A DNA stretch of 32,000 bases from Patescibacteria group bacterium (GTDB lineage Bacteria > Patescibacteriota > Patescibacteriia > UBA2591 > UBA6264), in NCBI GenBank assembly GCA_028713575.1, contig JAQTOB010000003.1:1-32000 (forward strand), given 5' to 3'. A program made the translations under genes and the position numbers. Shown here piece by piece: positions 2,576-29,453 of the stretch. Within the stretch, counting starts at the first letter, position 1. The number at the start of each line of letters is the position of its first letter. The notes below the pieces were generated by a model. The model had not been told where the DNA came from, did no database searches, and saw only the letters and a program-made list of their open reading frames with translations.

Positions 2576-3739
2576 ATGCAAGATAAAAATTATTATTCAA
2601 TGGCGAAAAACATTGTTTTAAGCATTATTTATTTTTTCCGTTTTTTTCTTCCGGGACAAAAACGGATTTTCTCCTTTAAAAAATTCACTTTGGCTGGAAT
2701 TTTAATTCTAACAGCCATTTTTTCTTTTTCGCAAATAAATAAAAAACCAATAAATAAAGTAGAATTAAGTGAAGAAATTATTGTTGAAACCGGCTTGCCA
2801 ATCCAAGCTGAAGAAATAGAGCACGACTTTCAAATCGCGGCTTGGCGAGAACCAGATGATATTTTGGGGTTAAGCGAGGAGTCGGAAATCGCCTTAATTT
2901 TCGGGGGGAGCGTCTTGGTGGCGCCGGAAACGGAAATTAATGAAAAAGACATTTATCGCCAAACTCGCACCGAGATTGAAACATATATTGTTCAACCGGG
3001 AGACACGATCAGCACTATTGCCGAAACATTTGGTCTCAATTGGAACACTATTTTTTGGGCCAATAATTTAAACTACTGGTCAGTAATCAAACCCGGAAAT
3101 GAATTAAAAATTCTACCGGTAAACGGATTAACTCATACAGTAAAAAGGGGAGAAAATATTTCTTCTATTGCCAGCAAATATAAATCCTCGGTTGAAAAAA
3201 TCATAGAAATTAATAATTTAAGCGAAGAATTGGCGGTTCAGCCGGGTATGATTTTAATTGTTCCTGACGGCACTCCGCCGCCTGCCCCGACTAAACCAAA
3301 ATATGTATCTCCAAGTCCTCAATTAGTACAACAAAATTATTCTAATTATTGGGACTGGAGAAAAAATACTGATTGCCATTTATTTGTTTCCCGACAGTGC
3401 ACTGATTGGGCTGCCTTTAAGTGGGCCAGCGAACAAGGTCAATGCGTGCCATCTTGGAGCCATGCTCGATATTGGTTTAAAAACGCGCAAAAAGACGGCT
3501 ATGAAACCGGAAACCAGCCAAAACAAGGGGCAATTATGGCCCTAACCTGCACCAGCTGGATTTGCGGTTATTATGGACATGTGGCTTATGTGGAAGATTT
3601 TGACGAAAATACTGTCACTATTTCCGAAATGAACGGTTTAAAACGTTTAGAGCAATCAACTCGCTCTTTTAAAAATATCACTAATCAATGGCAGGGCGGT
3701 TGGAAAATTCTTGGTTATATTTATCCAAAAAACAAATAA
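2576..3739 (+). CDS. Secreted/membrane-anchored peptidoglycan hydrolase: N-terminal TM, 2x LysM, C-terminal CHAP amidase/peptidase
   Basis: Two LysM repeats (YIVQPGDTISTIAETFGLNWNTIFWANNL; HTVKRGENISSIASKYKSSVEKIIEINNL). CHAP-like Cys (SRQCTDWAAFKW) and His (YGHVAYVE). Hydrophobic N-terminus. Confidence 0.85.
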   Translation: MQDKNYYSMAKNIVLSIIYFFRFFLPGQKRIFSFKKFTLAGILILTAIFSFSQINKKPINKVELSEEIIVETGLPIQAEEIEHDFQIAAWREPDDILGLSEESEIALIFGGSVLVAPETEINEKDIYRQTRTEIETYIVQPGDTISTIAETFGLNWNTIFWANNLNYWSVIKPGNELKILPVNGLTHTVKRGENISSIASKYKSSVEKIIEINNLSEELAVQPGMILIVPDGTPPPAPTKPKYVSPSPQLVQQNYSNYWDWRKNTDCHLFVSRQCTDWAAFKWASEQGQCVPSWSHARYWFKNAQKDGYETGNQPKQGAIMALTCTSWICGYYGHVAYVEDFDENTVTISEMNGLKRLEQSTRSFKNITNQWQGGWKILGYIYPKNK

Positions 3740-11977: not shown

Positions 11978-13018
11978 ATGATGATTCTTGATAATTTATC
12001 AAAAATTAAAAAGTTAGACAAATCAAACATGGCCGGATTTATTGCTGAATTCCCTCAAAAATGCCAACAAGCTTATAAAGAAGCGCAAAAAATCAGCCTG
12101 TCAAAAGAATATAAAAACGTCAAAAACGTGATTATTTGCGCTCTGGGAGGTTCGGCAATTAGCGGAGAATTAAGTAAGGGCCTGTCTGATCAACTAAAAA
12201 AACCAATTATTATTAATCGTAGTGAAAATTTGCCCAATTCAACAGACAAAGATTCTTTGGTTGTTTTAATAAGTTATTCCGGGAACACTCAAGAGGTTCT
12301 CCTTTGTGGCCAAGAGGCTAAACAAAGAAAAAGTAAAATTTTTATTATTACTCAAGGCGGGAAATTAAAAATTTTTGGGAAACAAAATAATTTCCCCATG
12401 TTTAATTTTGCCTATCCCGCTCCACCTCGAGCTGGCTTGGCTTATCTCTTAATGCCCTTGTTGGTTATTTTTGAAAAAATTGGATTGATTAAAAAAAATT
12501 CTTTAAAAATAAATAAAAAATTGCAAAATTTTTGTCAAAATTTGAACCCTCAAACGTTAACGAAAAAAAATCTTGCCAAATATTTGGCCTACGCAATGTT
12601 TGATCGTTTGCCCATCATTATCGCTCCGCCTGAATTAGTCAGTGTGGCCTATCGATGGAAAACACAAATGGCTGAAAATGCAAAATCTTTCTTATTTTTT
12701 GAGGCCAAGCCAGAAATATTCCATAATTTCATTGAAAGCGTATTTCCAAAAAGATTAAACGATGAATTTATTTTTTTAATTTTCAATGACATCAAAAAAA
12801 ATTATTTAAATAAAAAATCTTCAAAAATACTTGAAAATTTTTTAAAAGAAAAATTTTGTTGGGAAAAAGTGCCGTTCTTTGGACAAGACGCCCTAACTCA
12901 AACATTTTCTTTGATTTTGCTGGGGGACTGGATTAGTTTTTATCTTGCCCTGCTTAATGAAGTTGACCCTTCGCCGGTTAGACAAATAAAAAAATTTAAA
13001 AAACATTTAAATGAATAA
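11978..13018 (+). CDS. Bifunctional phosphoglucose/phosphomannose isomerase (SIS-domain, archaeal-type PGI/PMI)
   Basis: SIS motif ICALGGSAISGE, LVVLISYSGNTQE, C-terminal LLNEVDPSPVRQIKKFK typical of the bifunctional PGI/PMI family. Confidence 0.8.
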   Translation: MMILDNLSKIKKLDKSNMAGFIAEFPQKCQQAYKEAQKISLSKEYKNVKNVIICALGGSAISGELSKGLSDQLKKPIIINRSENLPNSTDKDSLVVLISYSGNTQEVLLCGQEAKQRKSKIFIITQGGKLKIFGKQNNFPMFNFAYPAPPRAGLAYLLMPLLVIFEKIGLIKKNSLKINKKLQNFCQNLNPQTLTKKNLAKYLAYAMFDRLPIIIAPPELVSVAYRWKTQMAENAKSFLFFEAKPEIFHNFIESVFPKRLNDEFIFLIFNDIKKNYLNKKSSKILENFLKEKFCWEKVPFFGQDALTQTFSLILLGDWISFYLALLNEVDPSPVRQIKKFKKHLNE

Positions 13019-14747
13019 TTTTTTAACATATAATTTAAAAAATTGGGATTGGTTAAAATATTTTTTTATTTTTTCTTTTAGCTTTATTGTTTTTCTTTAT
13101 TTACTCGTTCCTCCGGGTATCTTATGTCCAGACGGCTTTTTCCATACTAAAATGGCTTTATTGTTGAAAGAGCAAGGAGTGATAAAAAATTTCCCCTGGA
13201 CTCAATTCACCACTTATAAAGACCTTTTTGTTGACCATCATTTTCTTTACCACTTATTTCTCGTTCCCTTCTTAAGTTTGCCCTCTCCTCAAAATATGGA
13301 TATTTTTTCCCTGGAAACAGATTTTTTAATTAAAGCTAAATTGGCTACCGCATTTTTAGCCAGCCTGACATTTTTAATCCTTTATTGGTTTTGCCGACGA
13401 ATGAAAATAAAAGGGTCTTTAATTTGGACGATGACAGGATTTTTAATCCCCGCTTTTCTTTTCCGCCTTTCTTTAATCAGAGCACCGGGAATTTCTATTA
13501 TAATATTATTGTTAAGTTTTTATTTCATTCTAAAAAATAAATATTCCCCGCTTTTTCTTTTATCTTTTATTTATGTTTGGACCTACGGCGCCTGGCCACT
13601 GCTGATAATAGTAATTTTTTTGTATTGCTTCGCCGGGGCGTGCCAAAAATTAAACAACCAAAGAAATGAAATATACCAGAAAATCAAAAATCAAAAATCA
13701 AAATGTAAAATTAAAATTCAAAATTCAAAAATTTTTAAAATTTATATTGTCATTTTGCATTTTATATTTTGCATTTTGCATTTTATACGCTCTATTTTTT
13801 CTAAAAACAACATAAAACTCATTATTGCCTGTATGGGGGGGATATTCGTTGGTCTTGTCGTCAATCCTTATTTCCCAAAAACCTTCCCTTTTTATTGGCT
13901 ACAAACATTTAAAATCGCTTTTTTAAATTATCAAAGTAAAATCGGCGTCGGCGCCGAATGGTATCCTCCTAATTTAAAAACTTTTTTTATTAATGTTCTC
14001 CCTGTTTTTATCCCCTGGATAATCTCCTGGGCTTGGTTTGCTTTTAAAATAAAAAAACATAAAAAATCTTCCTGGTTTTTCGGTTTTATTTCCTTGTTTT
14101 TCTTTTTTTACACCCTAAAATCTTTTCGCAATATTGAATATTTTATTCCCTTCTCCATTGTTTTTAATGGTCTTATTTTCTCTCAAATTATTAAAAAAAT
14201 AAATTGGCAAGATATTAAAAATAATTTTAAGGCCTGTTTTAATGGACCAAATAATATTTTTTATTTTATCGCCGGACTTTTTTTAATTGTCTGTGTTAGC
14301 ATTTCATTTGGTTTTTATTTAAATTCAAGCATTAAAAATCTTCATCAAGAATATCAAAGAAACGGCCGACCGTTAAATCATTTACAAATGGCCTCTACTT
14401 GGTTAAAAAATCATGCCAATCCCGAAGAAATAGTTTTTCAAAGCAATTGGGGAATTTTCCCACAATTGTTTTATTTTAATTCGCAAAACTATTACATTAA
14501 TGGTTTGGACCAAACATTTATGTATGAATATAGCAAAGAATTATATCAGGATTGGTTTGATTTAGTTGCTTACAAAACAGGTCCGGAAAAAGCGGCTAAA
14601 ATTTTGAAAGAAAATTTCAAGGCTAGCTATGTTTTGGCAGACAAAAATGATGAACGTTTTGTCAAGCTAATTAAAAAATCAATCGGATTAATAGAAGTAT
14701 ATCAAGATGAACAAGCGATAATTTACCGAATAAATTATGTCAATTAA
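13011..14747 (+). CDS. Polytopic membrane protein, GT-C-fold (PMT/ArnT-like) glycosyltransferase candidate
   Basis: More than 10 predicted TM segments with a soluble C-terminal ~150 aa. The operon context with GT2 supports the role. The family assignment is an inference. Confidence 0.5.
   Translation: MNNFLTYNLKNWDWLKYFFIFSFSFIVFLYLLVPPGILCPDGFFHTKMALLLKEQGVIKNFPWTQFTTYKDLFVDHHFLYHLFLVPFLSLPSPQNMDIFSLETDFLIKAKLATAFLASLTFLILYWFCRRMKIKGSLIWTMTGFLIPAFLFRLSLIRAPGISIIILLLSFYFILKNKYSPLFLLSFIYVWTYGAWPLLIIVIFLYCFAGACQKLNNQRNEIYQKIKNQKSKCKIKIQNSKIFKIYIVILHFIFCILHFIRSIFSKNNIKLIIACMGGIFVGLVVNPYFPKTFPFYWLQTFKIAFLNYQSKIGVGAEWYPPNLKTFFINVLPVFIPWIISWAWFAFKIKKHKKSSWFFGFISLFFFFYTLKSFRNIEYFIPFSIVFNGLIFSQIIKKINWQDIKNNFKACFNGPNNIFYFIAGLFLIVCVSISFGFYLNSSIKNLHQEYQRNGRPLNHLQMASTWLKNHANPEEIVFQSNWGIFPQLFYFNSQNYYINGLDQTFMYEYSKELYQDWFDLVAYKTGPEKAAKILKENFKASYVLADKNDERFVKLIKKSIGLIEVYQDEQAIIYRINYVN
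13681..13790. repeat. AT-rich imperfect palindromic repeat element embedded in-frame in the CDS
   Basis: Left arm is (AAAATCA)n-AAAATGTAAAATTAAAATTCAAAATTCAAAA. Right arm is ATTTTGCATTTTATATTTTGCATTTTGCATTTTA, whose reverse complement is AAAATGCAAAAT units. It encodes KIKNQKSKCKIKIQNSKIFKIYIVILHFIFCILHFI. Confidence 0.7.
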
Positions 14748-15495
14748 AGCTCCAAATTATAAAACAATTGCTGTTTTGCCGGCCTATAATGCGGAAAAAA
14801 CATTAGAAAAAACCTTGGCAGACATTGATCAAAATTGGATTGATAAAATCATTTTGGTTGATGACGCCAGCACGGATAAAACCGTGGAAATTGCGAAAAA
14901 TTGCGGGATAGAAACATTTAAACACGAAAAAAATCTCGGTTATGGCGGAAATCAAAAAACTTGTTATAAGAAGGCGCTGGAAAGAGGGGCGGACATTGTG
15001 ATTATGATTCATCCTGACCACCAATACGACCCCACCTACATCCCTCAAATTGTTCTTCCAATTATCCGCGGTCAGGCTGACGCGGTTTTTGGTTCTCGCA
15101 TGATGGTTAAAGGTTGGGCGCGGGAAGGGGGAATGCCCGGGTGGAAATACTGGGCCAATATATTTTTAACCAAAATAGAAAATTTAATTTTAAGACTTCA
15201 TTTGACTGAATACCATTCCGGCTTTCGCGCTTACCGGAAAGAAATTTTACAAACCATTCCTTTTAATCTAAATTCTAATGATTTTGTTTTTGATACGGAA
15301 ATTATTATCCAAATTAAAATCCATAAATTCCGAATTATGGAAATTCCCATTACCACCCGTTATTTCAAAGATGCCTCTTCTGTTGGTTTAAAAAAAAGCG
15401 TTGTCTATGGCTTGTCTATTTTGAATCGCCTGATTAAATATATTCTGAGTAAAATCAAAATAAGAAAAGAGCTTCGGTTCCGATTAAAAACGTAA
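14737..15495 (+). CDS. GT2 glycosyltransferase, polyprenol-phosphate sugar synthase-like (Dpm1/GtrB/ArnC-like)
   Basis: AVLPAYNAEKTLEKTL...LVDDASTDKT...GYGGNQK...IHPDHQYDP (GT-A DxD region). 11-bp overlap with the upstream gene. Confidence 0.85.
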   Translation: MSIKAPNYKTIAVLPAYNAEKTLEKTLADIDQNWIDKIILVDDASTDKTVEIAKNCGIETFKHEKNLGYGGNQKTCYKKALERGADIVIMIHPDHQYDPTYIPQIVLPIIRGQADAVFGSRMMVKGWAREGGMPGWKYWANIFLTKIENLILRLHLTEYHSGFRAYRKEILQTIPFNLNSNDFVFDTEIIIQIKIHKFRIMEIPITTRYFKDASSVGLKKSVVYGLSILNRLIKYILSKIKIRKELRFRLKT

Positions 15496-15560
15496 AATGC
15501 AAATCTCAAAGTATGACCCGCCCGCGCAGGCAAGAATAAAAATGTAAAATTTTAATTTTG

Positions 15561-15576
15561 TCCGTCAGTTGACGGA
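15561..15576 (+). terminator. Weak hairpin downstream of the GT2 gene
   Basis: TCCGTCA-GT-TGACGGA followed by TTACTCTTT. The T-tract is poor. Confidence 0.3.
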
Positions 15577-15644
15577 TTACTCTTTGATACCTAAATTTTA
15601 AATCAGGAACGGATGAGTGTTTTATAAAAAACTTTACTTCCTAT

Positions 15645-17261
15645 ATGACTATTAAAAATTTAATTAAAAATATTTCTTGGAAGGACTGGCTGTTTCTGAT
15701 TGGGATGGCTTTTTTAGTGATTTTAGCCACCACTGTTCCTTATTTTTATGGTTATTCCAAAGCAAATGAAAATACTTATTTTTTGGCCATTCCGTCTTTA
15801 AACGAATTTGATTATCCAAATTATTTTTCTTACATTGAGCAAGTCCGACAAGGACATTTTTTATTTGAAGATTATTATACGACTGAAGCGCAACCGCGCG
15901 TTATCCTGAATTTATTTTTTCTTGCCCTCGGCCTAATTGCCAAATTCTCTCACTTGTCCGCCATAGCTATCTTCCATCTTGTCCGCGTTTTCCTGATTCC
16001 TATTTTTATCTTTGTTTTTTATCTTTTCCTAAAATTTTTGTTCCAAGAAAAAATCAAACAAAAAATATGTTTAATTTTAATTTGTTTTTCCAGCGGCTGG
16101 GGATTTATTCTTTATTCCTTATCTTCTATTTATAAACAATCAATGGATTTGTGGGTTCCTGAAGCCGTTACTTTTCTCAGTTTTTATACTAACCCGCTTT
16201 TTATTTTTTCTTTGACTTTAATTGTTCTGATTTTCTTTTTAATGCTTTTGTCCGCTGTTAATAAGAATTATCGCTATGCCATTGCGGCCGGGCTGGTTGG
16301 TTTAATTCTTTTCCAAATTCATCCTTATCATTTGCCGACTGTTTTTTCTGTTTTAATCGTTTTTTGGCTAATAATTTGTCTGCGCGAAAAAAAAATAAAT
16401 TGGTTATTTTTTAAATACGGTTTAATTTTCTTTTTTCTTTCTCTCCCTCCTGTTTTGTATTATTATTGGCTTTCTTCTTCTCATTGGCTAACAGTCCATC
16501 GCATCAGTCAGGCAACCCCTGCTGGCCTCACTCCTCCTTTCTGGCCATTTCTTATTAGTTATGGTTTACTTTGGCCATTGGCCTTTGTTGGTATTTATCC
16601 TGTTGTTAAAAATAAAAAAAAATATATTTCTGTTTTTCTCCCCGTTTGGCTAATTACTCATATTATTCTGGTTTATTTGCCTTTTCCCCTGCAAAGAAAA
16701 TTAACAGAAGGTCTTCATTTAGTCCTTTGTTTAATGGCCACAGAGGGAATTTTCTTTATTTGGCAAAAAATAAAAGAAAAAAAAATCTTTAAATTTTTTA
16801 AAAATAAATTCTTATTTTATGTTTTATTTTTGTTTTTCTTTTCTCTTTCAAATGTCTTTATTCTAAGCAAAGACATATTCCTTTTTTCTGACCCTGGCTT
16901 TTCCTTGCCCAAAAAAGCAATGGAGCCAATGCTTTGGTTAAAAAATAATTCATCAGAAGATGCAAAAGTTTTAAGCGTCAAAAATTTATATCTTCACAAT
17001 TTAATTCCTGCTTTTAGTGTCAGAAAAGTTTTTGCCGGCCATAGTTTTGAAACCGCTTATTATCAAAACAAAATTAAAGAAATTGATTGGTTTTTTAATA
17101 CCAATATTAACGATGACGAAAAAGAAAAATTTTTAAAAAAAAATGGCTTGAATTATATTTTATTTTATAAAAACGGCAATTATTCTTTTAGGCCGAATGA
17201 AAAAAAATATTTAAAATTGGTCTTTGAAAACGAATTAATCAATATTTATCAAAATCAATAA
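15645..17261 (+). CDS. Second polytopic membrane protein, GT-C-like glycosyltransferase candidate
   Basis: More than 10 TM segments, a first-loop acidic/aromatic patch (NEFDYPNYFSYIEQVRQGHFLFEDYY) and a soluble C-terminal domain. Family assignment inferred. Confidence 0.5.
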   Translation: MTIKNLIKNISWKDWLFLIGMAFLVILATTVPYFYGYSKANENTYFLAIPSLNEFDYPNYFSYIEQVRQGHFLFEDYYTTEAQPRVILNLFFLALGLIAKFSHLSAIAIFHLVRVFLIPIFIFVFYLFLKFLFQEKIKQKICLILICFSSGWGFILYSLSSIYKQSMDLWVPEAVTFLSFYTNPLFIFSLTLIVLIFFLMLLSAVNKNYRYAIAAGLVGLILFQIHPYHLPTVFSVLIVFWLIICLREKKINWLFFKYGLIFFFLSLPPVLYYYWLSSSHWLTVHRISQATPAGLTPPFWPFLISYGLLWPLAFVGIYPVVKNKKKYISVFLPVWLITHIILVYLPFPLQRKLTEGLHLVLCLMATEGIFFIWQKIKEKKIFKFFKNKFLFYVLFLFFFSLSNVFILSKDIFLFSDPGFSLPKKAMEPMLWLKNNSSEDAKVLSVKNLYLHNLIPAFSVRKVFAGHSFETAYYQNKIKEIDWFFNTNINDDEKEKFLKKNGLNYILFYKNGNYSFRPNEKKYLKLVFENELINIYQNQ

Positions 17262-17319: not shown

Positions 17320-17748
17320 CTAAGAAAAATATTTTATCAACATCATTGAGCTGGATGGGCCGGGTTTACTGGGTTTACTGGTTGCTTTTGATAAATTTTC
17401 AATCACAAAACGGGAAATTGCGTATGCAAGGACAATAATAATCAATCCAATAAAAGCGTTTTGAAAAAGCGCTTTGGCTTTTTTAACTTGGTCTTCCTTG
17501 CCGCCGGCAGTCATCCACATAATGCCCCCAATAATAACCAAAATTAACAAAAACACTCCCGTTAAGGTAAAAATCGTTCCCATAATCTTCCCTGTAATTG
17601 CGCTAATATCCCGTTGTTCTCCTAATTTAGCGCTATCTGCCACTTTATCAAGTTCCTCTAATTGAGCAGAAACATTTAAAGGGATTAGGAAAAAAATCAT
17701 TAAAACCAAAACAAACAATTTGCCTTTTTTTGGATTAAAAATTCTCAT
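17320..17748 (-). CDS. TrbC/VirB2-like 'pilin' small membrane protein, paralog P1
   Basis: Signal peptide ending LNVSAQ. Core VIIGGIMWMTAGGKEDQVKKAKALFQNAFIGLIIIVLAYAISRFV (TM-basic loop-TM). Ser/Pro-rich tail TSKPSKPGPSSS. Confidence 0.7.
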   Translation of the reverse strand: MRIFNPKKGKLFVLVLMIFFLIPLNVSAQLEELDKVADSAKLGEQRDISAITGKIMGTIFTLTGVFLLILVIIGGIMWMTAGGKEDQVKKAKALFQNAFIGLIIIVLAYAISRFVIENLSKATSKPSKPGPSSSMMLIKYFS

Positions 17749-17756
17749 AAATTAAA

Positions 17757-18140
17757 CTATGCTTCAGTTACCTCAACTATATTGCTGATAACAAAGGTAG
17801 CAATGGCATAGGCCAAAACAACAATTATTAGCCCTACCAAAGCAGAACCAATTAATTTTTTAGCGCTTTTAATTTTGTCCTCATTTCCAGCTGAGGCCAT
17901 CCACTGAAATCCGCCGATAATAACCAAAACAACGGCCACTAAGCCAAGAAGGCTTAAAACAATTTTAATAATATTCCCCACCACTTCGGTTATGCTGGCT
18001 TCACCATAACCGGCTACTTCGCGAAAATTCTGTACATAATTATTGCCCAGGTCCAAATTACTGGTCTGCGCTAATAAGGCTGAAGGAGCTAAAGCCGAAA
18101 CAATGGCGACTAAAGCAATTAATGATAAAAATTTTTTCAT
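17757..18140 (-). CDS. TrbC/VirB2-like 'pilin' small membrane protein, paralog P2
   Basis: Signal peptide MKKFLSLIALVAIVSALAPSALLAQ. Core VIIGGFQWMASAGNEDKIKSAKKLIGSALVGLIIVVLAYAIATFV. Confidence 0.7.
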   Translation of the reverse strand: MKKFLSLIALVAIVSALAPSALLAQTSNLDLGNNYVQNFREVAGYGEASITEVVGNIIKIVLSLLGLVAVVLVIIGGFQWMASAGNEDKIKSAKKLIGSALVGLIIVVLAYAIATFVISNIVEVTEA

Positions 18141-18220
18141 TTTAAAGCTCTTTTGCTTCTACCTCCTGGAAGCAATTTATTAATTCGACCTTAGATTAAT
18201 TATATTACATATATATTTTA

Positions 18221-18249
18221 TATATAAACAAAATCATTAAATTTGTCAA
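18221..18249 (-). promoter_or_regulatory. Sigma70-like promoter for the P2-P1 unit
   Basis: The minus strand reads TTGACA (18249-18244), 17 nt, then TATATA (18226-18221), with TG 2-3 nt upstream of the -10. Confidence 0.45.
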
Positions 18250-18311
18250 TCCTTTTATATAATAATCTAAAAAAAATAAAGAATCAATGTTAAAAAGTGG
18301 ATATCTTTTTT

Positions 18312-18656
18312 TTATTTAAGAAAAGCTTCTATAATAAAACGGGTGATGGCATAACTAAAAAACACCAAACCCATGCCCAATATGGCCCAAACCAAAGTGT
18401 CTTTCCCTTTTTTAATTTTTTCCGCTGAACCGCCGGAAGTCATCCATGTTATCCCGCCGACAATAAACATCACCAAAGCAATCACGCCGACAAATCTTAA
18501 AACATATTGGATAATACTGGCCGCCAAAGCGGAAATGTCTTTGTTTCCCAAGGGGTCTTCAATTGAAGGAACCTCGTCGGCTAAGGCAACTCCAAATAAA
18601 AACAATTGAATTAAAATTAATCCTAATAATATTTTTTTGTTTTTTTGTTGTTTCAT
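18312..18656 (-). CDS. TrbC/VirB2-like 'pilin' small membrane protein, paralog P3
   Basis: Signal peptide ending GVALADE. Core FIVGGITWMTSGGSAEKIKKGKDTLVWAILGMGLVFFSYAITRFI. Confidence 0.7.
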   Translation of the reverse strand: MKQQKNKKILLGLILIQLFLFGVALADEVPSIEDPLGNKDISALAASIIQYVLRFVGVIALVMFIVGGITWMTSGGSAEKIKKGKDTLVWAILGMGLVFFSYAITRFIIEAFLK

Positions 18657-18674
18657 AAAAATAAATTTATTTTA

Positions 18675-19451
18675 TTAGGGGGAACAGGGTTTGCTGTCTA
18701 GACTTTCAAATATTTTTTTATAGGTATCTGGTCCAACCAAGCCGTCCACTTCTAAATTATTGGCGGATTGAAATCTTTTAGTGCACTCTTTTGTGTCTGA
18801 ACCAAACTTACCGTCCGCCACGCCACAATTACATCCCAATTGATTCAGCTCATCCTGATAAATTTTTACCGCCTCGCCCCGGCAACCTTGTCCTGCTCCG
18901 GTCCAAATACAACCATAACACCAGGACTTATTCTTTGTAGGGGGGACCAAACAGGCCGGCCATTCTGTTTCCTTTTGTGTCGTTTGGTTTGATAAAAGTC
19001 TTTCTGTCCCTAAGGCTTGCATTATCACTTTTACAATAGTAAAAGAAATTAAAATAATCACTAATCCGATAATTGCGCCCCTGACAATGTCTTTTCCTTT
19101 TTTAACTTTGTCTTGCGAACCGCCGGAAGTCATCCAAACAATACCGCCAATAATTAAAAATAATATGGCAAAAACACCGGAAAACTTTAAAATTTTGTCC
19201 GCCAAATTAATGAATATTGTAACCATATCATTTAAGGTGCAATCTCCACAACAGGCACACTCGGGGCGAGAAATAAATAAACCGACATAACAATTATCGT
19301 ATCTTTTTCCCTGGCAAGTACAATTATAATACGTATTGCCTTCTTTGTCTGTTTGGGGGCTACCGCAATCTGAAACAGCATAAACCGAAGATGTCAAGCC
19401 AAACATAAAAATAAGTATTAAAAATGCTAAAATTTTCTTTTTAAAAAACAT
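18675..19451 (-). CDS. Pilin-like core (paralog P4) fused to Cys-rich ectodomains and a C-terminal PG_binding_1-type peptidoglycan-binding domain
   Basis: Signal peptide ending SSVYAV. N-terminal Cys-rich stretch CGSPQ..CTCQGKRYDNC..PECACCGDC. Core LIIGGIVWMTSGGSQDKVKKGKDIVRGAIIGLVIILISFTIV. C-terminal LNQLGCNCGVADGKFGSDTKECTKRFQSANNLEVDGLVGPDTYKKI. Confidence 0.7.
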   Translation of the reverse strand: MFFKKKILAFLILIFMFGLTSSVYAVSDCGSPQTDKEGNTYYNCTCQGKRYDNCYVGLFISRPECACCGDCTLNDMVTIFINLADKILKFSGVFAILFLIIGGIVWMTSGGSQDKVKKGKDIVRGAIIGLVIILISFTIVKVIMQALGTERLLSNQTTQKETEWPACLVPPTKNKSWCYGCIWTGAGQGCRGEAVKIYQDELNQLGCNCGVADGKFGSDTKECTKRFQSANNLEVDGLVGPDTYKKIFESLDSKPCSP

Positions 19452-19511
19452 AAAATTGACGTTAAGAATTAATTTAGTTGGGCATTTACGGGTTTAAACA
19501 AAGAAAACGCA

Positions 19512-19546
19512 AAATGTCAGCTTAAAATGTCAAAATTCAAATGTCA
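19512..19546. repeat. Three direct AAATGTCA boxes (minus strand TGACATTT) upstream of P4
   Basis: Copies at 19512-19519, 19525-19532 and 19539-19546, spaced 13 and 14 bp. Two read as full TTGACA on the minus strand. Confidence 0.6.
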
Positions 19547-19633
19547 AATAAAAGTTTGAATTTTTAATTTGACTTGTCGTTAAAAATTTAAATTTTAACG
19601 TTTATTTCGCATATTCTAATGTTAAATTAACTT

Positions 19634-21010
19634 TTAATAAGTTAGATTAATTTTTTGAACACAATAATTAATCGCTTTATCAATTGTTTTTTCTCCGCTG
19701 AACACTTCGGCTACCATTTGCCTAAAAGATTCTTCAACTAAAGAATAATTTTTCCCCCTATACCAAGTCTGAGCCGTAAGCACTCCTTTAACAAAAGGCG
19801 CTAAGTCAAAATCTTCTAATTGTTTTTCAATCAGGGCTCGGTGGGCGGTTGGTTTTTTTGTCCTCTCAATGAAGGTTTGGGCATTTTGTGCTTGGGTGGC
19901 ATAAAGAAGAAAAACCCAAGCCTCTTGAGGATGTTGGGTTTTTTTGGAAATCGTTTCCAACCAGTAACGCGCATAATTGATTTCTTTGAGCGAAGCGCTA
20001 ATTTGCGGAACCGGCGCAATATCAAAATTTAATTTTGGCGCCTGTTGTTTAATAAGGGACAAATAGTCAGAATAACCAAAAATGAAAGCCACTTTTCCCT
20101 GAATAAAAGATTCTAAAGAATTGGGCATTTGATCGTGCCAGGTATAAATTTCCTGATAAGGGTCGGCAAAGCTGGTATAAAATTTTAAAGCTTCTTTGCC
20201 GGGAAAATAATTCGGGTCATCAATTAATGGTTGATTAAAAATCGCTCCCCTTGTATAATCGGCCATGGCTGTTCCATTCTGCATCATTAATAAAGAAAGA
20301 ATGTCTGTTAAATTTTCCACGTTTTTGGAAGAGCCCATAGCCGCGCCGGAACGAAGGAAATCCCCTTGATTGTCTTGAATTGTTATGGTGTGAACATCGT
20401 TGACAAAATCTTGCCAATTTTTCGGCGCCTCAATAATGCCGGCGCTATTTAAAATGTCTTGGTTATAATAAAGACTTAGAATGTCTAAAGACAGGGGTAG
20501 ACCATAAATTTTATCATCAATGACCAAGTCCTTGGAAATTGTTTCTACAAAAGTTTCTCTCAGGTCTCTTAAGCTGGGCGCTTTCTTTTTTTCTTCTATA
20601 ATTTTTTGTTCCTTCTTTATTGTTCCTGTTGTTATTTGTCGGCCAATCGTTAGTTCGTCTAATAAACTTAAGGGTAAAATTTTAGTTTGATATTTTCCCA
20701 ACCAGGTATTGGGGATGGCAAAAATGTCCGGCCCTTGGTCTTCCGCCCAGGCTTCCAAAAGGGCTTGCTCATATTCCTCTGGTCTTATTTGTTGATAAGT
20801 AATGGAAATGTGAGGATATAGCGCCCTAAAACTCTGTAAAATGGCGCTAAAAGCGTCTTGACCGTCTTGCGGCCGCCAATAAACCAAATTGATTGGTTTG
20901 ATTTTCTCCGCCATCTCTTTTGACGTACATTTGCATCCCAATCCGGCAGTAATTAAAACAACTGAAATTAAAAACCCAATTAAAATTTTTGTTTTTAGCT
21001 GAAAAATCAT
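19634..21010 (-). CDS. ABC-transporter extracellular solute-binding protein (sugar-type, family 1), probable lipoprotein
   Basis: N-terminal TM/signal with Cys (ITAGLGCKC). Typical SBP_bac_1-like length and motifs (LVYWRP.., GPDIF.., KVAFIFGYS). No permease or ATPase gene is adjacent. Confidence 0.75.
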   Translation of the reverse strand: MIFQLKTKILIGFLISVVLITAGLGCKCTSKEMAEKIKPINLVYWRPQDGQDAFSAILQSFRALYPHISITYQQIRPEEYEQALLEAWAEDQGPDIFAIPNTWLGKYQTKILPLSLLDELTIGRQITTGTIKKEQKIIEEKKKAPSLRDLRETFVETISKDLVIDDKIYGLPLSLDILSLYYNQDILNSAGIIEAPKNWQDFVNDVHTITIQDNQGDFLRSGAAMGSSKNVENLTDILSLLMMQNGTAMADYTRGAIFNQPLIDDPNYFPGKEALKFYTSFADPYQEIYTWHDQMPNSLESFIQGKVAFIFGYSDYLSLIKQQAPKLNFDIAPVPQISASLKEINYARYWLETISKKTQHPQEAWVFLLYATQAQNAQTFIERTKKPTAHRALIEKQLEDFDLAPFVKGVLTAQTWYRGKNYSLVEESFRQMVAEVFSGEKTIDKAINYCVQKINLTY

Positions 21011-28982: not shown

Positions 28983-29453
28983 TTATTTAAATATCCAGAA
29001 TTTCTGGATAATAAAACGAAAAAACAAAACAATGATCGCCGCCAAAGCTTTGCCTAAAAGGTCATAAATGTTCCCCGTTTCCACAAAAATATAAAGCAAA
29101 AACTGATAAAAAATCATACCCCCGACTCCGCCGATAATCCAAAATTTAAGATATTGAGAAGCTACATTTTTCCCTTGATTTTTAAAAACCCAATTCTTAT
29201 TAACAATAAAACTGGCTACAGCGCCGACGGACATTGAAACAAAATTAGCCCAAAGATAGTGAATTTGCCAAAATAAAAAAACTCTGGTCAAAAAAATATA
29301 AACGGCAAAATCAAGCAGGGTTAACAATCCACCGGAAATAATGAATTTAACCAATTGCCTTAAATAAAGTTTTTGACCGATAATCGGAATTTTATAAAGA
29401 AGATTATCTGTCCAAAAAAATAATTCTTTTATCTTTAAAAATGGATTTTTCAT
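28983..29453 (-). CDS. GtrA-family membrane protein (polyprenyl-phosphate-sugar handling)
   Basis: Four TM segments and VKFIISGGLLTLLDFAVYIFL, typical of GtrA-like proteins. 4-bp overlap with mltG. Confidence 0.8.
   Translation of the reverse strand: MKNPFLKIKELFFWTDNLLYKIPIIGQKLYLRQLVKFIISGGLLTLLDFAVYIFLTRVFLFWQIHYLWANFVSMSVGAVASFIVNKNWVFKNQGKNVASQYLKFWIIGGVGGMIFYQFLLYIFVETGNIYDLLGKALAAIIVLFFRFIIQKFWIFK

What the first reader, a model, noticed from the sequence alone, without database searches (positions are those of the whole stretch)
17320..19451. Tandem quartet of TrbC/VirB2-like 'pilin' paralogs with no secretion machinery in the window
Seen: four consecutive minus-strand genes form two units, P4-P3 (18-bp gap) and P2-P1 (8-bp gap), separated by a 170-bp spacer that carries a promoter. 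All four have a signal peptide and a TM-basic loop-TM hairpin with a near-invariant core. P1: VIIGGIMWMTAGGKEDQVKKAKALFQNAFIGLIIIVLAYAISRFV. P2: VIIGGFQWMASAGNEDKIKSAKKLIGSALVGLIIVVLAYAIATFV. P3: FIVGGITWMTSGGSAEKIKKGKDTLVWAILGMGLVFFSYAITRFI. P4: LIIGGIVWMTSGGSQDKVKKGKDIVRGAIIGLVIILISFTIVKVI. The mature N-terminal ectodomains and the tails are unrelated to each other. Established: this topology and loop resemble conjugative T4SS pilins (VirB2/TrbC) and the 'pilin' family annotated in CPR genomes. Inference: no VirB4, VirD4, VirB6 or other assembly ATPase lies within 32 kb. These may therefore be a diversified surface-filament or adhesin set with variable tips on a constant core, relevant to an episymbiotic lifestyle, or a membrane scaffold unrelated to secretion. 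Their assembly route and function are uncharacterised.
Basis: partly seen in the sequence, partly recalled or inferred. Interest (0 to 1): 0.72.

Follow-up and report, generated by a model that had tools for sequence, protein, structure and literature searches.

The report
VirB2-like pilin array, Patescibacteria chromosome
Four neighbouring genes of an ultra-small (Patescibacteria/CPR) bacterium encode secreted two-helix membrane proteins of the conjugative-pilin (VirB2/TrbC) family; such pilin arrays are already described in this phylum, so the find is a new member of a known kind whose function is still untested.

Summary
Four minus-strand genes (P1 17320-17748, P2 17757-18140, P3 18312-18656, P4 18675-19451) each encode a signal peptide and a TM-basic loop-TM hairpin. 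All four pass Pfam's threshold for PF18895 T4SS_pilin. P3 also passes PF04956 TrbC/VirB2. No T4SS ATPase or channel gene lies in the window or in 10 kb further right.

This is a known kind. VirB2-like pilin arrays in Patescibacteria were reported in 2018, 2023 and 2025, and NCBI already names P3 "TrbC/VirB2 family protein".

Details I did not find in the papers read:
- In 63 of 79 related loci (class ABY1 where classed) the array directly follows a conserved lipoprotein-type solute-binding protein, with no ABC permease nearby.
- None of the 79 loci has a VirB4 or VirD4 relative within 10 kb. Three of those genomes are listed elsewhere as VirB4-positive.
- The four genes are positional orthologues in 13 genomes.
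- P2-P1 have their own conserved promoter and leader.
- P4 carries a peptidoglycan-binding tail.

Most likely these are non-redundant subunits of one envelope structure, built by a T4SS encoded elsewhere. That step is inferred, not shown.

The parts
19634..21010 (-). Solute-binding-protein-like lipoprotein (458 aa), the conserved upstream partner of the array
   Evidence: Pfam SBP_bac_1 85.3 bits and SBP_bac_8 80 bits. A member of this cluster lies in 65 of 80 sources (79 related loci plus the window), and in 63 loci it is directly followed by a pilin gene on the same strand, with a median gap of about 9 bp and several 4-bp overlaps. It has a conserved N-terminal [ST]G[LF]GC Cys after the hydrophobic segment. 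The top 120 homologues are 47-84% identical. No MalFG-type permease lies in any of the 79 loci.
19452..19633 (-). SBP-P4 spacer (182 bp), with three TGACAT(TT) direct repeats at 19546-19541, 19532-19527 and 19519-14
   Evidence: Sequence read. The orthologous spacer is 1-35 bp in most relatives. Strains differ here by 9-bp and 7-bp indels. Function not tested.
18675..19451 (-). P4: signal peptide, Cys-rich N-terminal ectodomain, pilin hairpin (residues ~79-144), linker, C-terminal PG_binding_1 domain (191-247)
   Evidence: PF18895 35.0 bits and PF01471 52.8 bits. In the AF2 model the C-terminal domain matches the SleB N-terminal domain 6tci (TM 0.83, rmsd 1.3) and other peptidoglycan-binding domains. 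The hairpin matches pilins 8dfu (prob 0.97) and 8exh (26% identity). The Cys pattern is conserved in 10 homologues.
18312..18656 (-). P3: the smallest pilin (114 aa; about 88 aa mature), the most VirB2/TrbC-like
   Evidence: PF18895 36.4 bits and PF04956 TrbC 36.4 bits against a 27.9 cut-off. AF2 mean pLDDT 82.3, above 90 in the hairpin. This position is the best conserved across 13 genomes (67% core identity).
18141..18311 (-). P3-P2 spacer: conserved promoter and leader region
   Evidence: Elements in the window: a DnaA-box-like ATATCCACT (18304-18296); TTGATT-N17-TATTAT (18287-18259); a second TTTATA-N18-TATAAT (18228-18199); an invariant AAGGTCG (18192-18186) starting 7 nt after that TATAAT; and a hairpin TTGCTTC/GAAGCAA (18175-18153). 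Across the 13 orthologous spacers (window included), the box matches with 0-2 mismatches and is followed 5-9 nt later by TTGA[CT] in 10 of 13. AAGGTCG is present in 11 of 13 and AAAGTCG in the other two. No Rfam family matches.
17757..18140 (-). P2: pilin (127 aa)
   Evidence: PF18895 36.6 bits, TrbC 23.6 bits (below cut-off), NCBIfam NF045849 38.0 bits against a 40 cut-off.
17320..17748 (-). P1: pilin (142 aa) with a Ser/Pro/Lys-rich C-terminal tail
   Evidence: PF18895 32.2 bits. P1-type and P2-type proteins are each other's closest paralogues.
11978..17261 (+). Context only: a convergent envelope-glycosylation cluster (PGI-like, 578-aa polytopic protein, polyprenyl-phosphate GT2, 538-aa polytopic protein)
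   Evidence: Pfam and NCBIfam results. The same convergent arrangement occurs in many related loci. At the equivalent places L089 and L090 carry MptA_B, PMT_2 and PIG-U (GT-C type) hits. The two window polytopic proteins themselves have no family hit.

Best explanation
Shown. This is a chromosomal locus of a Patescibacteria bacterium; the related loci that a published table classes are ABY1. It encodes a solute-binding-type lipoprotein followed by four Sec-exported proteins of the VirB2/TrbC-like pilin family (Pfam PF18895). Each has a cleavable signal peptide and a two-helix hairpin. The conserved basic loop (WMTSGG..K.KK.K) should face the cytoplasm, with both ends outside. The four are ancient, positionally conserved paralogues. 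P4 carries a peptidoglycan-binding domain on its outside-facing C-terminus. P2-P1 sit behind their own conserved promoter and leader.

Inferred. The four are non-redundant subunits of one hetero-oligomeric envelope structure: the pilus-like or wall-spanning part of the Patescibacteria type IV secretion system. That system's ATPase (VirB4) and channel genes are encoded elsewhere in the genome. After Sec insertion the hairpins wait in the membrane. A VirB4-type ATPase extracts and polymerises them through the conserved cytoplasmic loop, as is established for Agrobacterium VirB2. P2 and P1 would be the abundant shaft subunits. P3 would be a minor subunit. P4 would be a base or collar that fixes the structure to the cell wall. 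The co-transcribed lipoprotein would be an accessory receptor or adhesin at its foot or tip.

Purpose. By analogy with Southlakia epibionticum, where the pilin array and T4SS are essential, the structure would mediate contact with, or exchange with, a host cell.
For: Family membership. All four exceed the PF18895 threshold, and P3 also exceeds TrbC/VirB2. NCBIfam's Mycoplasma-ICE pilin-like model scores just below its cut-off. Among membrane hairpins, the P4 model's best PDB matches are conjugative pilins: 8dfu (prob 0.97) and 8exh VirB2 (26% identity).

Topology. The peptidoglycan-binding domain lies after TM2 and the loop is positively charged.

Non-redundancy.
- Best hits fall at the same array position in 154/156, 156/156, 136/156 and 103/156 comparisons across 13 genomes.
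- Between strains of this species there are 0 non-synonymous changes in the array plus SBP, against 18 elsewhere in 20.8 kb.

Physical association of hairpins. Single polypeptides carry 2-17 tandem hairpins after one signal peptide.

Separate expression of P2-P1. The promoter and leader are conserved.

T4SS elsewhere is plausible.
- 2,417 of 3,035 Patescibacteria assemblies have VirB4.
- The pilin gene lies near virB4 in only 1,135 of 1,948 assemblies that hold both.
- Three ABY1 genomes that carry unlinked arrays in my set are listed as VirB4-positive.

Functional precedent. The pilin series is essential in S. epibionticum (PMC10633639). A pilus-like conduit is the reviewers' working idea (PMC12857230).
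Against: No VirB4, VirD4 or VirB6 relative was found in the window, in 10 kb beyond it, or within 10 kb of any of 79 related arrays. I could not check the rest of this genome.

The constant genetic partner is a solute-binding lipoprotein, not a T4SS gene.

Fold searches gave no statistically significant pilin match. For P3 the best pilin hit has E 1.7, and helical hairpins are common.

No VirB2-type filament has been seen on any Patescibacterium. The filaments solved from a cultured Saccharibacterium are Ig-like Pam pili.

A peptidoglycan-binding subunit and relatives with 900-2,300-aa ectodomains fit a membrane anchor as well as they fit a filament.

The major/minor subunit assignment rests only on promoter layout.
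Confidence: 0.5

Rival explanations
1. A T4SS-independent module. The lipoprotein SBP and the hairpin proteins form a self-contained membrane and cell-wall complex. The hairpins oligomerise in the membrane as an anchor, ring or scaffold. This complex displays variable ectodomains and the ligand-binding lipoprotein at the surface, for adhesion to or capture of host glycans. The VirB2-like fold is reused without a secretion ATPase.
For: The SBP gene is adjacent and often translationally coupled in 63 of 79 loci, while no T4SS gene is ever adjacent. The SBP has no ABC permease partner nearby. It is more conserved than the pilins. P4 binds peptidoglycan. Family members carry very large ectodomains or many tandem hairpins. 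The neighbourhood is envelope-glycan biosynthesis.
Against: Sequence-family membership in a pilin family whose known members depend on VirB4. The strongly conserved cytoplasmic loop suggests a conserved cytoplasmic partner. Related genomes do encode VirB4 elsewhere. In Saccharibacteria the arrays lie inside the T4SS cluster. Gene adjacency in small syntenic genomes is weak evidence of function.
Confidence: 0.2
2. An interchangeable variant set. The four pilins are alternative major subunits of one T4SS pilus. They are kept to vary the exposed surface for different hosts or to escape recognition, as proposed for the VirB2 paralogues of Bartonella and Anaplasma and suggested for Patescibacteria.
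For: The exposed N- and C-terminal parts are far more variable than the core. The published interpretation of Patescibacteria arrays is adaptation to different host strains.
Against: Each array position is a stable orthologue across 13 genomes. There is no non-synonymous variation among six strain-level assemblies. The members differ in architecture (P4 peptidoglycan-binding, P3 minimal). Fused multi-hairpin proteins imply co-assembly. No recombination repeats flank the genes.
Confidence: 0.1
3. Not pilins at all. They are generic small two-helix membrane proteins, such as holin-like or stress proteins. The Pfam match would then be driven by hydrophobic composition.
For: Foldseek finds no significant match, and many unrelated hairpins score similarly. 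No PDB sequence match was found.
Against: Four independent hits lie above curated thresholds, including the classical TrbC/VirB2 model. The motif GG..WM.SGG...K.KK.K is conserved well beyond hydrophobicity. The proteins have signal peptides, which holins lack. No lysis genes accompany them. The same family sits inside T4SS clusters in Saccharibacteria.
Confidence: 0.03

Closest known systems
VirB2-like pilin arrays of Patescibacteria (Southlakia epibionticum ML1 T4SS cluster SEML1_0006-0019; the 'array of small signal-peptide proteins' of Nanosynbacter TM7x; 441 arrays in 383 assemblies)
   Same: Same phylum and same Pfam families (PF18895/PF04956). Tandem genes on one strand, each with a signal peptide. 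Low identity between members: the literature gives a mean of 25% and a maximum of 54%; here identity to P1 is 34-42% full length.
   Different: The published arrays were counted near virB4 (Fig. S9 legend) and are richest in Saccharimonadia and Microgenomatia. This array is in an ABY1-type genome and is not near any T4SS gene. It is coupled to a solute-binding lipoprotein gene and has a fixed four-member composition conserved in 13 genomes. Essentiality is known only for S. epibionticum.
VirB2/TrbC conjugative pilins of diderm T4SS (Agrobacterium T-pilus VirB2, PDB 8exh; RP4 TrbC)
   Same: Signal peptide, two hydrophobic helices and a short basic loop. P3 passes the TrbC/VirB2 Pfam threshold. 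The P4 hairpin aligns to 8exh over 72 columns at 26% identity.
   Different: Ordinary 23-28-residue signal peptides read from the sequence. No evidence of cyclisation or of a TraF-type peptidase. The organism has no outer membrane. There are four paralogues instead of one gene. The genes are not in a virB operon. The structural match is not statistically significant.
Archaeal conjugation (Ced-type) pilus of Aeropyrum pernix, PDB 8dfu
   Same: A VirB2-like pilus made by an organism with a single membrane. It is the best pilin match of both models (prob 0.63 and 0.97).
   Different: E-values are 1.7 and 0.5 and identity is 15-16%. It functions in DNA import in archaea. No sequence-level relationship was shown here.
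Mbov_0395/MMCAP2_0565 pilin-like conjugal transfer protein of Mycoplasma ICEs (NCBIfam NF045849)
   Same: A small pilin-like hairpin of a wall-less monoderm T4SS (MPF-FATA world). It aligns over nearly the whole 80-position model (P2: 8-80).
   Different: All four score below the curated cut-off (19-38 bits against 40), so they are not members. The Mycoplasma proteins are ICE-borne single genes.
VirB2 paralogue clusters of Bartonella and Anaplasma
   Same: Several divergent virB2 copies in tandem.
   Different: Those are read as antigenic or host-range variants. Here positional orthology and the absence of strain-level amino-acid change argue for fixed, distinct roles.
Cluster-type carbohydrate solute-binding proteins of ABC importers (MalE/GanS-like)
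   Same: The upstream gene has the SBP_bac_1/SBP_bac_8 fold signature and a lipoprotein-type N-terminus.
   Different: Similarity to named SBPs is only weak (29 bits or less against cut-offs of 291-700). No permease or ATPase partner lies within 10 kb in 79 loci. Its constant neighbour is the pilin array.

Membership tests
Pfam PF18895 T4SS_pilin / PF04956 TrbC-VirB2 (VirB2-like conjugative pilins) | Profile-HMM score above the curated gathering threshold | tested here: met
   PF18895: 32.2, 36.6, 36.4 and 35.0 bits against 26.6 for P1-P4. PF04956: P3 scores 36.4 against 27.9, while P1, P2 and P4 fall below it.
Pfam PF18895 T4SS_pilin / PF04956 TrbC-VirB2 (VirB2-like conjugative pilins) | Cleavable signal peptide followed by two hydrophobic helices joined by a short basic loop; small mature size | tested here: met
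   AxA-type sites read from the sequence. AF2 helices 41-72 and 78-113 in P3. Mature sizes are about 88, 103 and 114 aa, and 233 aa for P4 with its extra domains.
Pfam PF18895 T4SS_pilin / PF04956 TrbC-VirB2 (VirB2-like conjugative pilins) | Fold match to solved conjugative pilins | tested here: inconclusive
Pfam PF18895 T4SS_pilin / PF04956 TrbC-VirB2 (VirB2-like conjugative pilins) | Encoded with VirB4, VirB6 and other T4SS genes | tested here: not met
   None in the window or in 10 kb to the right. phmmer with pCF10 PrgJ, PcfC, PrgH, PrgK and PrgL found nothing in 1.48 Mb of window plus related loci. That search had no positive control.
Pfam PF18895 T4SS_pilin / PF04956 TrbC-VirB2 (VirB2-like conjugative pilins) | A VirB4 ATPase present somewhere in the same genome | not testable with these tools
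   Only 10 kb either side of window genes can be fetched from the 517-kb contig. Indirect evidence: three of four related genomes in the published Table S1 are VirB4-positive.
Pfam PF18895 T4SS_pilin / PF04956 TrbC-VirB2 (VirB2-like conjugative pilins) | Polymerises into an extracellular pilus; maturation by cyclisation in the VirB2/TrbC subgroup | not testable with these tools
   Needs microscopy or mass spectrometry. No TraF-like peptidase was seen in the window.
Patescibacteria VirB2-like pilin array (as defined in PMC12102498) | Two to eleven VirB2-like genes in tandem, or separated by one gene, with low mutual identity, in a Patescibacteria genome | tested here: met
   Four genes with 34-42% identity to P1. 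The relatives are Uhr-, Falkow-, Magasanik- and Komeilibacteria and similar groups, and NCBI labels the proteins 'Patescibacteria group bacterium'.
Patescibacteria VirB2-like pilin array (as defined in PMC12102498) | Located within 20 genes of virB4 | tested here: not met
   No virB4 lies within about 19 kb to the left or 22 kb to the right of the array.
Type IV pilins (T4P, class III signal peptide) | N-terminal G|F/M-T-L-x-E prepilin peptidase motif | tested here: not met
   None of P1-P4 has it (sequence). It is present instead in unrelated genes upstream of some related arrays.
NCBIfam NF045849 Mbov_0395-family pilin-like conjugal transfer protein | Score at or above the curated cut-off (40 bits) | tested here: not met
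   29.0, 38.0, 27.8 and 19.2 bits.
SBP-dependent ABC importer (for the upstream gene) | The binding protein is encoded with its membrane permeases and ATPase | tested here: not met
   No BPD_transp or ABC_tran gene is in the window. A motif scan found no ORF with a MalFG-type EAA loop and one small ABC-type ATPase ORF in 79 loci. Partners elsewhere in the genome are not excluded.

The most novel reading that the evidence does not exclude
In ABY1-type Patescibacteria the conserved 'orphan' solute-binding lipoprotein and the VirB2-like hairpin proteins may form a self-contained surface device that works without a T4SS ATPase. One version: a ligand-capturing, wall-anchored conduit or scaffold in which pilin-fold hairpins replace the usual ABC permease partner or display host-binding domains.
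Probability: 0.15. Interest if true: 0.75.

Novelty: new member of a known kind. Interest (0 to 1): 0.35.

Why it matters
Patescibacteria make up a large share of bacterial diversity, and most appear to live attached to other cells. In the one species tested genetically, a T4SS with a VirB2-like pilin series is essential. What it builds or moves is unknown, and no such filament has been seen.

This locus does not answer that question. It does give testable detail for a large, uncultured class:
- a fixed set of four distinct subunits;
- one subunit tied to peptidoglycan;
- a separate conserved promoter for two of the four;
- a constant solute-binding lipoprotein partner.

If the lipoprotein link is functional, it would point to what the structure recognises. 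If complete genomes keep the module without VirB4, the pilin fold would have a use outside secretion.

Tried and rejected
- **PDB sequence search.** A profile of the four proteins gave only chance hits.
- **PrgF of pCF10 as a monoderm VirB2 equivalent.** phmmer gave weak hits, and only to pilin ORFs (best E 1e-4). Pfam does not place PrgF in PF18895, and hhalign gives 2.8% probability. I dropped this idea.
- **Walking along the 517-kb contig to find VirB4.** Look-ups are limited to window proteins. The right side could be extended by 10 kb. The two left-end proteins were found only on short contigs of other assemblies.
- **The T2SSE ATPase just outside the window as a VirB11.** It is PilT (424.7 bits against a 319.1 cut-off).
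- **The two unannotated polytopic proteins beside the array (13011-14747, 15645-17261) as VirB6.**
  - They have no Pfam or NCBIfam hit, even at E of 1 or less.
  - PrgH found nothing.
  - They are co-oriented with a polyprenyl-phosphate GT2.
  - Relatives have GT-C hits at those places.
  - A glycosyltransferase role is therefore more likely but not shown. BLASTP of the 538-aa protein against two of those GT-C genes found nothing.
- **Peptidoglycan-binding domain as a general feature of the first array member.** It is present in only 4 of 64.
- **Rfam search of the whole window.** No family matched.
- **Promoter consensus scan alone.** The count equals the shuffle expectation. The promoter claim rests on cross-genome conservation instead.


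Full report
**1. Observation**

- P1: 17320-17748, 142 aa.
- P2: 17757-18140, 127 aa.
- P3: 18312-18656, 114 aa.
- P4: 18675-19451, 258 aa.

All lie on the minus strand. The gaps are 8, 171 and 18 bp. The quoted core peptides are exact. Alignment gives 34-42% identity to P1, with 15 invariant columns. Eleven of these lie in the motif region around I.GG..WM...G.....K..K.....A..G.

Each protein opens with a lysine-rich n-region, a hydrophobic stretch and an AxA-type signal-peptidase site. This is read from the sequence.

AlphaFold2 with 95 homologues models P3 as two long helices (41-72, 78-113) joined by a five-residue turn. pLDDT is above 90 across the hairpin. P4 has the same hairpin at 73-147.

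The loop is net positive. P4's extra C-terminal domain is a peptidoglycan-binding domain, which must be outside the cell. The topology is therefore N-out, loop-in, C-out.

**2. Family**

All four pass Pfam's curated threshold for PF18895 T4SS_pilin. P3 also passes PF04956 TrbC/VirB2. NCBIfam's pilin-like conjugal transfer protein of Mycoplasma ICEs matches all four but below its cut-off.

No solved structure is similar in sequence. Foldseek gives no significant hit for P3. The highest-probability match is the Aeropyrum pernix conjugation pilus 8dfu. For P4 the hairpin matches 8dfu (probability 0.97) and the Agrobacterium T-pilus VirB2 8exh (26% identity). Its tail matches the SleB, CtpB and endolysin peptidoglycan-binding domains at TM 0.83 and rmsd about 1 Å.

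A profile of the family finds 90,470 clusters (at 50% identity) with E of 1e-3 or less among 1.84 billion representatives. This is a very large family.

**3. Source and surroundings**

The window is 99.57% identical to a 517,351-bp JGI metagenome contig and 100% identical to Logan contigs. NCBI holds the same proteins from a 'Patescibacteria group bacterium' MAG. It names P3 'TrbC/VirB2 family protein' and P4 'peptidoglycan-binding protein'.

Every ORF of at least 90 aa in the window except five was scanned: 2052-2369 and four ORFs nested inside longer genes on the other strand. The scanned ORFs are housekeeping or envelope genes:
- LeuRS, a LysM-CHAP protein, GH57 ×2 and GlgA.
- RuvC, YebC and a PGI-like protein.
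- A polyprenyl-phosphate GT2 flanked by two unannotated polytopic proteins.
- PBP1A, GtrA, YceG and TrxB.

Ten kb further right holds LspA, FtsH, DnaN, HU, an M23 peptidase and an ATPase that is PilT, not VirB11. The left side could not be extended. So no T4SS gene lies from about 19 kb left to 22 kb right of the array.

**4. Relatives**

A scan of one genome per species found 349 relatives. I examined the best 79 loci. Their titles name Uhr-, Falkow-, Magasanik-, Komeili-, Kerfeld- and Buchananbacteria. The members that appear in a published genome table are class ABY1.

With an HMM built from the four cores I found 558 pilin-domain ORFs. Nearly every locus has a same-strand array of 4-14 genes.

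Clustering the neighbours showed one outstanding partner: the 458-aa solute-binding-protein homologue that also precedes P4 in the window (19634-21010).
- It is present in 65 of 80 sources, that is 79 related loci plus the window.
- In 63 loci it is directly followed by a pilin gene on the same strand. The median gap is about 9 bp, and several pairs overlap by 4 bp.
- A GalU-like gene precedes it in 43 loci.
- Two look-ups that started from SBP homologues again led to arrays of four and five T4SS_pilin genes.

The SBP has a conserved lipoprotein-type Cys. It is 47-84% identical among its top 120 homologues, so it is more conserved than the pilins. It has no MalFG-type permease nearby in any locus.

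**5. No T4SS machinery near any related array**

Among ORFs of at least 400 aa, the only Walker-A proteins are FtsK, FtsH, DnaA, UvrA and BipA, plus one 490-aa ORF in L016 that matched no Pfam family. phmmer with pCF10 PrgJ (VirB4), PcfC (VirD4), PrgH, PrgK and PrgL found nothing in 1.48 Mb. That search had no positive control.

The published Table S1 nevertheless lists three of these genomes as ABY1 and VirB4-positive: SG8_24, Uhrbacteria RIFCSPLOWO2_01_FULL_47_25 and Magasanikbacteria CG11..39_34. A fourth, a 463-kb partial assembly, is listed as negative.

The same paper reports:
- VirB4 in 2,417 of 3,035 assemblies.
- Pilin genes near virB4 in only 1,135 of 1,948 assemblies that hold both.
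- ABY1 T4SS loci lying beside comF, recG and radA.

Unlinked arrays are therefore normal in this class. They do not show that the machinery is missing.

**6. Structure of the quartet**

Thirteen genomes share the same four-gene layout: a long first gene, one of about 115 aa, a spacer, one of about 122 aa and one of about 140 aa. Best hits between genomes fall at the same position in 154/156, 156/156, 136/156 and 103/156 comparisons.

Core identity at one position across genomes is 52-67%. Between positions it is about 41-43%. P1-type and P2-type proteins are the closest pair.

Within orthologues the hairpin is 51-67% identical, the N-terminal ectodomain 28-35% and the tail 14-23%.

Between the window and the 517-kb strain there are 42 synonymous and 18 non-synonymous coding differences in 20.8 kb. 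The array plus SBP (3.3 kb) has one synonymous change and no non-synonymous change. Other strains add three more synonymous sites in P4.

Many family members are single polypeptides with 2-17 hairpins in tandem after one signal peptide. Fusion of this kind suggests that the hairpins pack side by side.

These results together favour fixed, co-assembling subunits over interchangeable variants.

**7. P4**

The Cys-rich N-terminal domain and the peptidoglycan-binding tail are conserved in about ten homologues. Only 4 of 64 first-position pilins have PG_binding_1. Other lineages put other, unannotated extensions on the first gene. These reach 906 aa in first-position genes, and 981 aa (L047) and 2,334 aa (L073) in pilin-domain proteins elsewhere.

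**8. Regulation**

The P3-P2 spacer is conserved in layout across the 13 quartets. Reading from the stop codon of P3 towards P2:
- A DnaA-box-like motif comes directly after the stop codon. The consensus is TTATCCACA. It has 0-2 mismatches and is followed by the -35 in 10 of 13 spacers. In the window it reads ATATCCACT at 18304-18296.
- 5-9 nt later lies TTGAC-N17-TAnnAT (window 18287-18259).
- Further downstream lies AAGGTCG, present in 11 of 13 spacers, with AAAGTCG in the other two.
- In the window AAGGTCG starts 7 nt after a TATAAT (18204-18199). A 52-nt leader with a hairpin follows.

AAGGTCG is rare elsewhere. It occurs 129 times in 1.35 Mb, and 14 of those lie within 150 nt upstream of a pilin gene.

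P2-P1 are therefore a separate, conserved transcription unit. SBP, P4 and P3 form the upstream unit. In this species a 182-bp insertion-like spacer with TGACAT repeats and strain-variable indels separates SBP from P4.

**9. Interpretation**

Identity as a Patescibacteria VirB2-like pilin array is well supported and already known:
- bioRxiv 10.1101/258137.
- PMC10633639.
- PMC12102498.
- PMC12857230.

The mechanism is inferred. Sec-inserted hairpins would be polymerised by a distant T4SS into a wall-spanning or pilus-like hetero-oligomer. P2 and P1 would be the main subunits, P4 the wall anchor and the lipoprotein an accessory.

The main rival is a T4SS-independent SBP-hairpin envelope module. 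The invariable SBP linkage and the lack of any observed VirB2 filament in the phylum keep it alive. The only filaments solved so far are Ig-like Pam pili.

**10. Verdict**

The SBP coupling, positional orthology, peptidoglycan-binding subunit and conserved internal promoter are modest additions. I did not find them in the searchable literature.

Noticed in passing
window 18141-18311 (minus strand): A conserved intergenic layout sits between the second and third pilin genes in 13 genomes. In order it holds a DnaA-box-like TTATCCACA motif, a -35/-10 pair, the motif AAGGTCG, and a leader hairpin with GGAGG in its loop. A DnaA-type box next to a pilin promoter could couple expression to the cell cycle. 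One strain SNP (18167) falls in the hairpin loop.
   Followed up: partly
window 19452-19633: The SBP-P4 spacer is 182 bp here but 1-35 bp in most orthologues. It carries three TGACAT(TT) direct repeats 13-14 nt apart. Strains differ here by 9-bp and 7-bp indels.
   Followed up: partly
P0243 (1775 aa), P0242 (820 aa), P0241 (552 aa), P0247 (364 aa): Some single polypeptides carry 4-17 pilin hairpins in tandem. In the two that were read (P0241, P0247) they follow one signal peptide and are joined by linkers of about 15-20 residues ('poly-pilins'). It is unclear whether they are processed or act as covalent oligomers.
   Followed up: partly
L073 6912-13916; L047 6945-9890; L030 4203-6923: Pilin-domain proteins of 2,334, at least 981 and 906 aa. 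The hairpin sits near the N-terminus in L073 and L047 and near the C-terminus (residues 777-839) in L030. The large remaining regions were not scanned individually, apart from L030, which was included in the family scan.
   Followed up: no
L029, L038, L042, L056, L069, L076, L077 (upstream of galU-SBP-array): In Magasanikbacteria-type loci, three genes precede the galU-SBP-pilin operon on the same strand. Two of them have type IV (pseudo)pilin N-termini (KAFTLVE, TTLLELA).
   Followed up: partly
window 11978-17261 and 28983-29453: A convergent cluster of a PGI-like gene, a 578-aa polytopic protein, a polyprenyl-phosphate GT2 and a 538-aa polytopic protein, plus a GtrA flippase-like gene. This looks like an extracytoplasmic glycosylation system. 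Both polytopic proteins lack any Pfam or NCBIfam hit. Similar genes flank many related arrays. P1's Ser/Pro-rich tail could be a target.
   Followed up: partly
L008 17041-20637 (about window 37,900-41,500): dnaN, HU, an M23 peptidase and a PilT-family ATPase lie 18-22 kb to the right of the array. dnaA is not next to dnaN here.
   Followed up: partly
window 17320-21010 compared with L001-L006: The array and SBP show no amino-acid change among six strain-level assemblies from different samples. Neighbouring genes carry 18 non-synonymous differences in 20.8 kb.
   Followed up: yes
record titles of L009-L012, L014, L017 and others: Many MAGs that are plainly Patescibacteria are titled 'uncultured Gammaproteobacteria bacterium', and one is titled 'Lysobacteraceae'. 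The public records appear mislabelled.
   Followed up: no
window 2576-3739: A secreted protein with two LysM domains and a CHAP domain, a peptidoglycan hydrolase type that some monoderm T4SSs use as a VirB1 equivalent. It lies 15 kb from the array, with no evidence of a link.
   Followed up: no
L091 19545-19772 (pCF10 prgF): PrgF, a 75-aa two-helix protein of the enterococcal T4SS, gave weak phmmer hits exclusively to the pilin ORFs. Pfam and hhalign did not confirm any relationship.
   Followed up: yes
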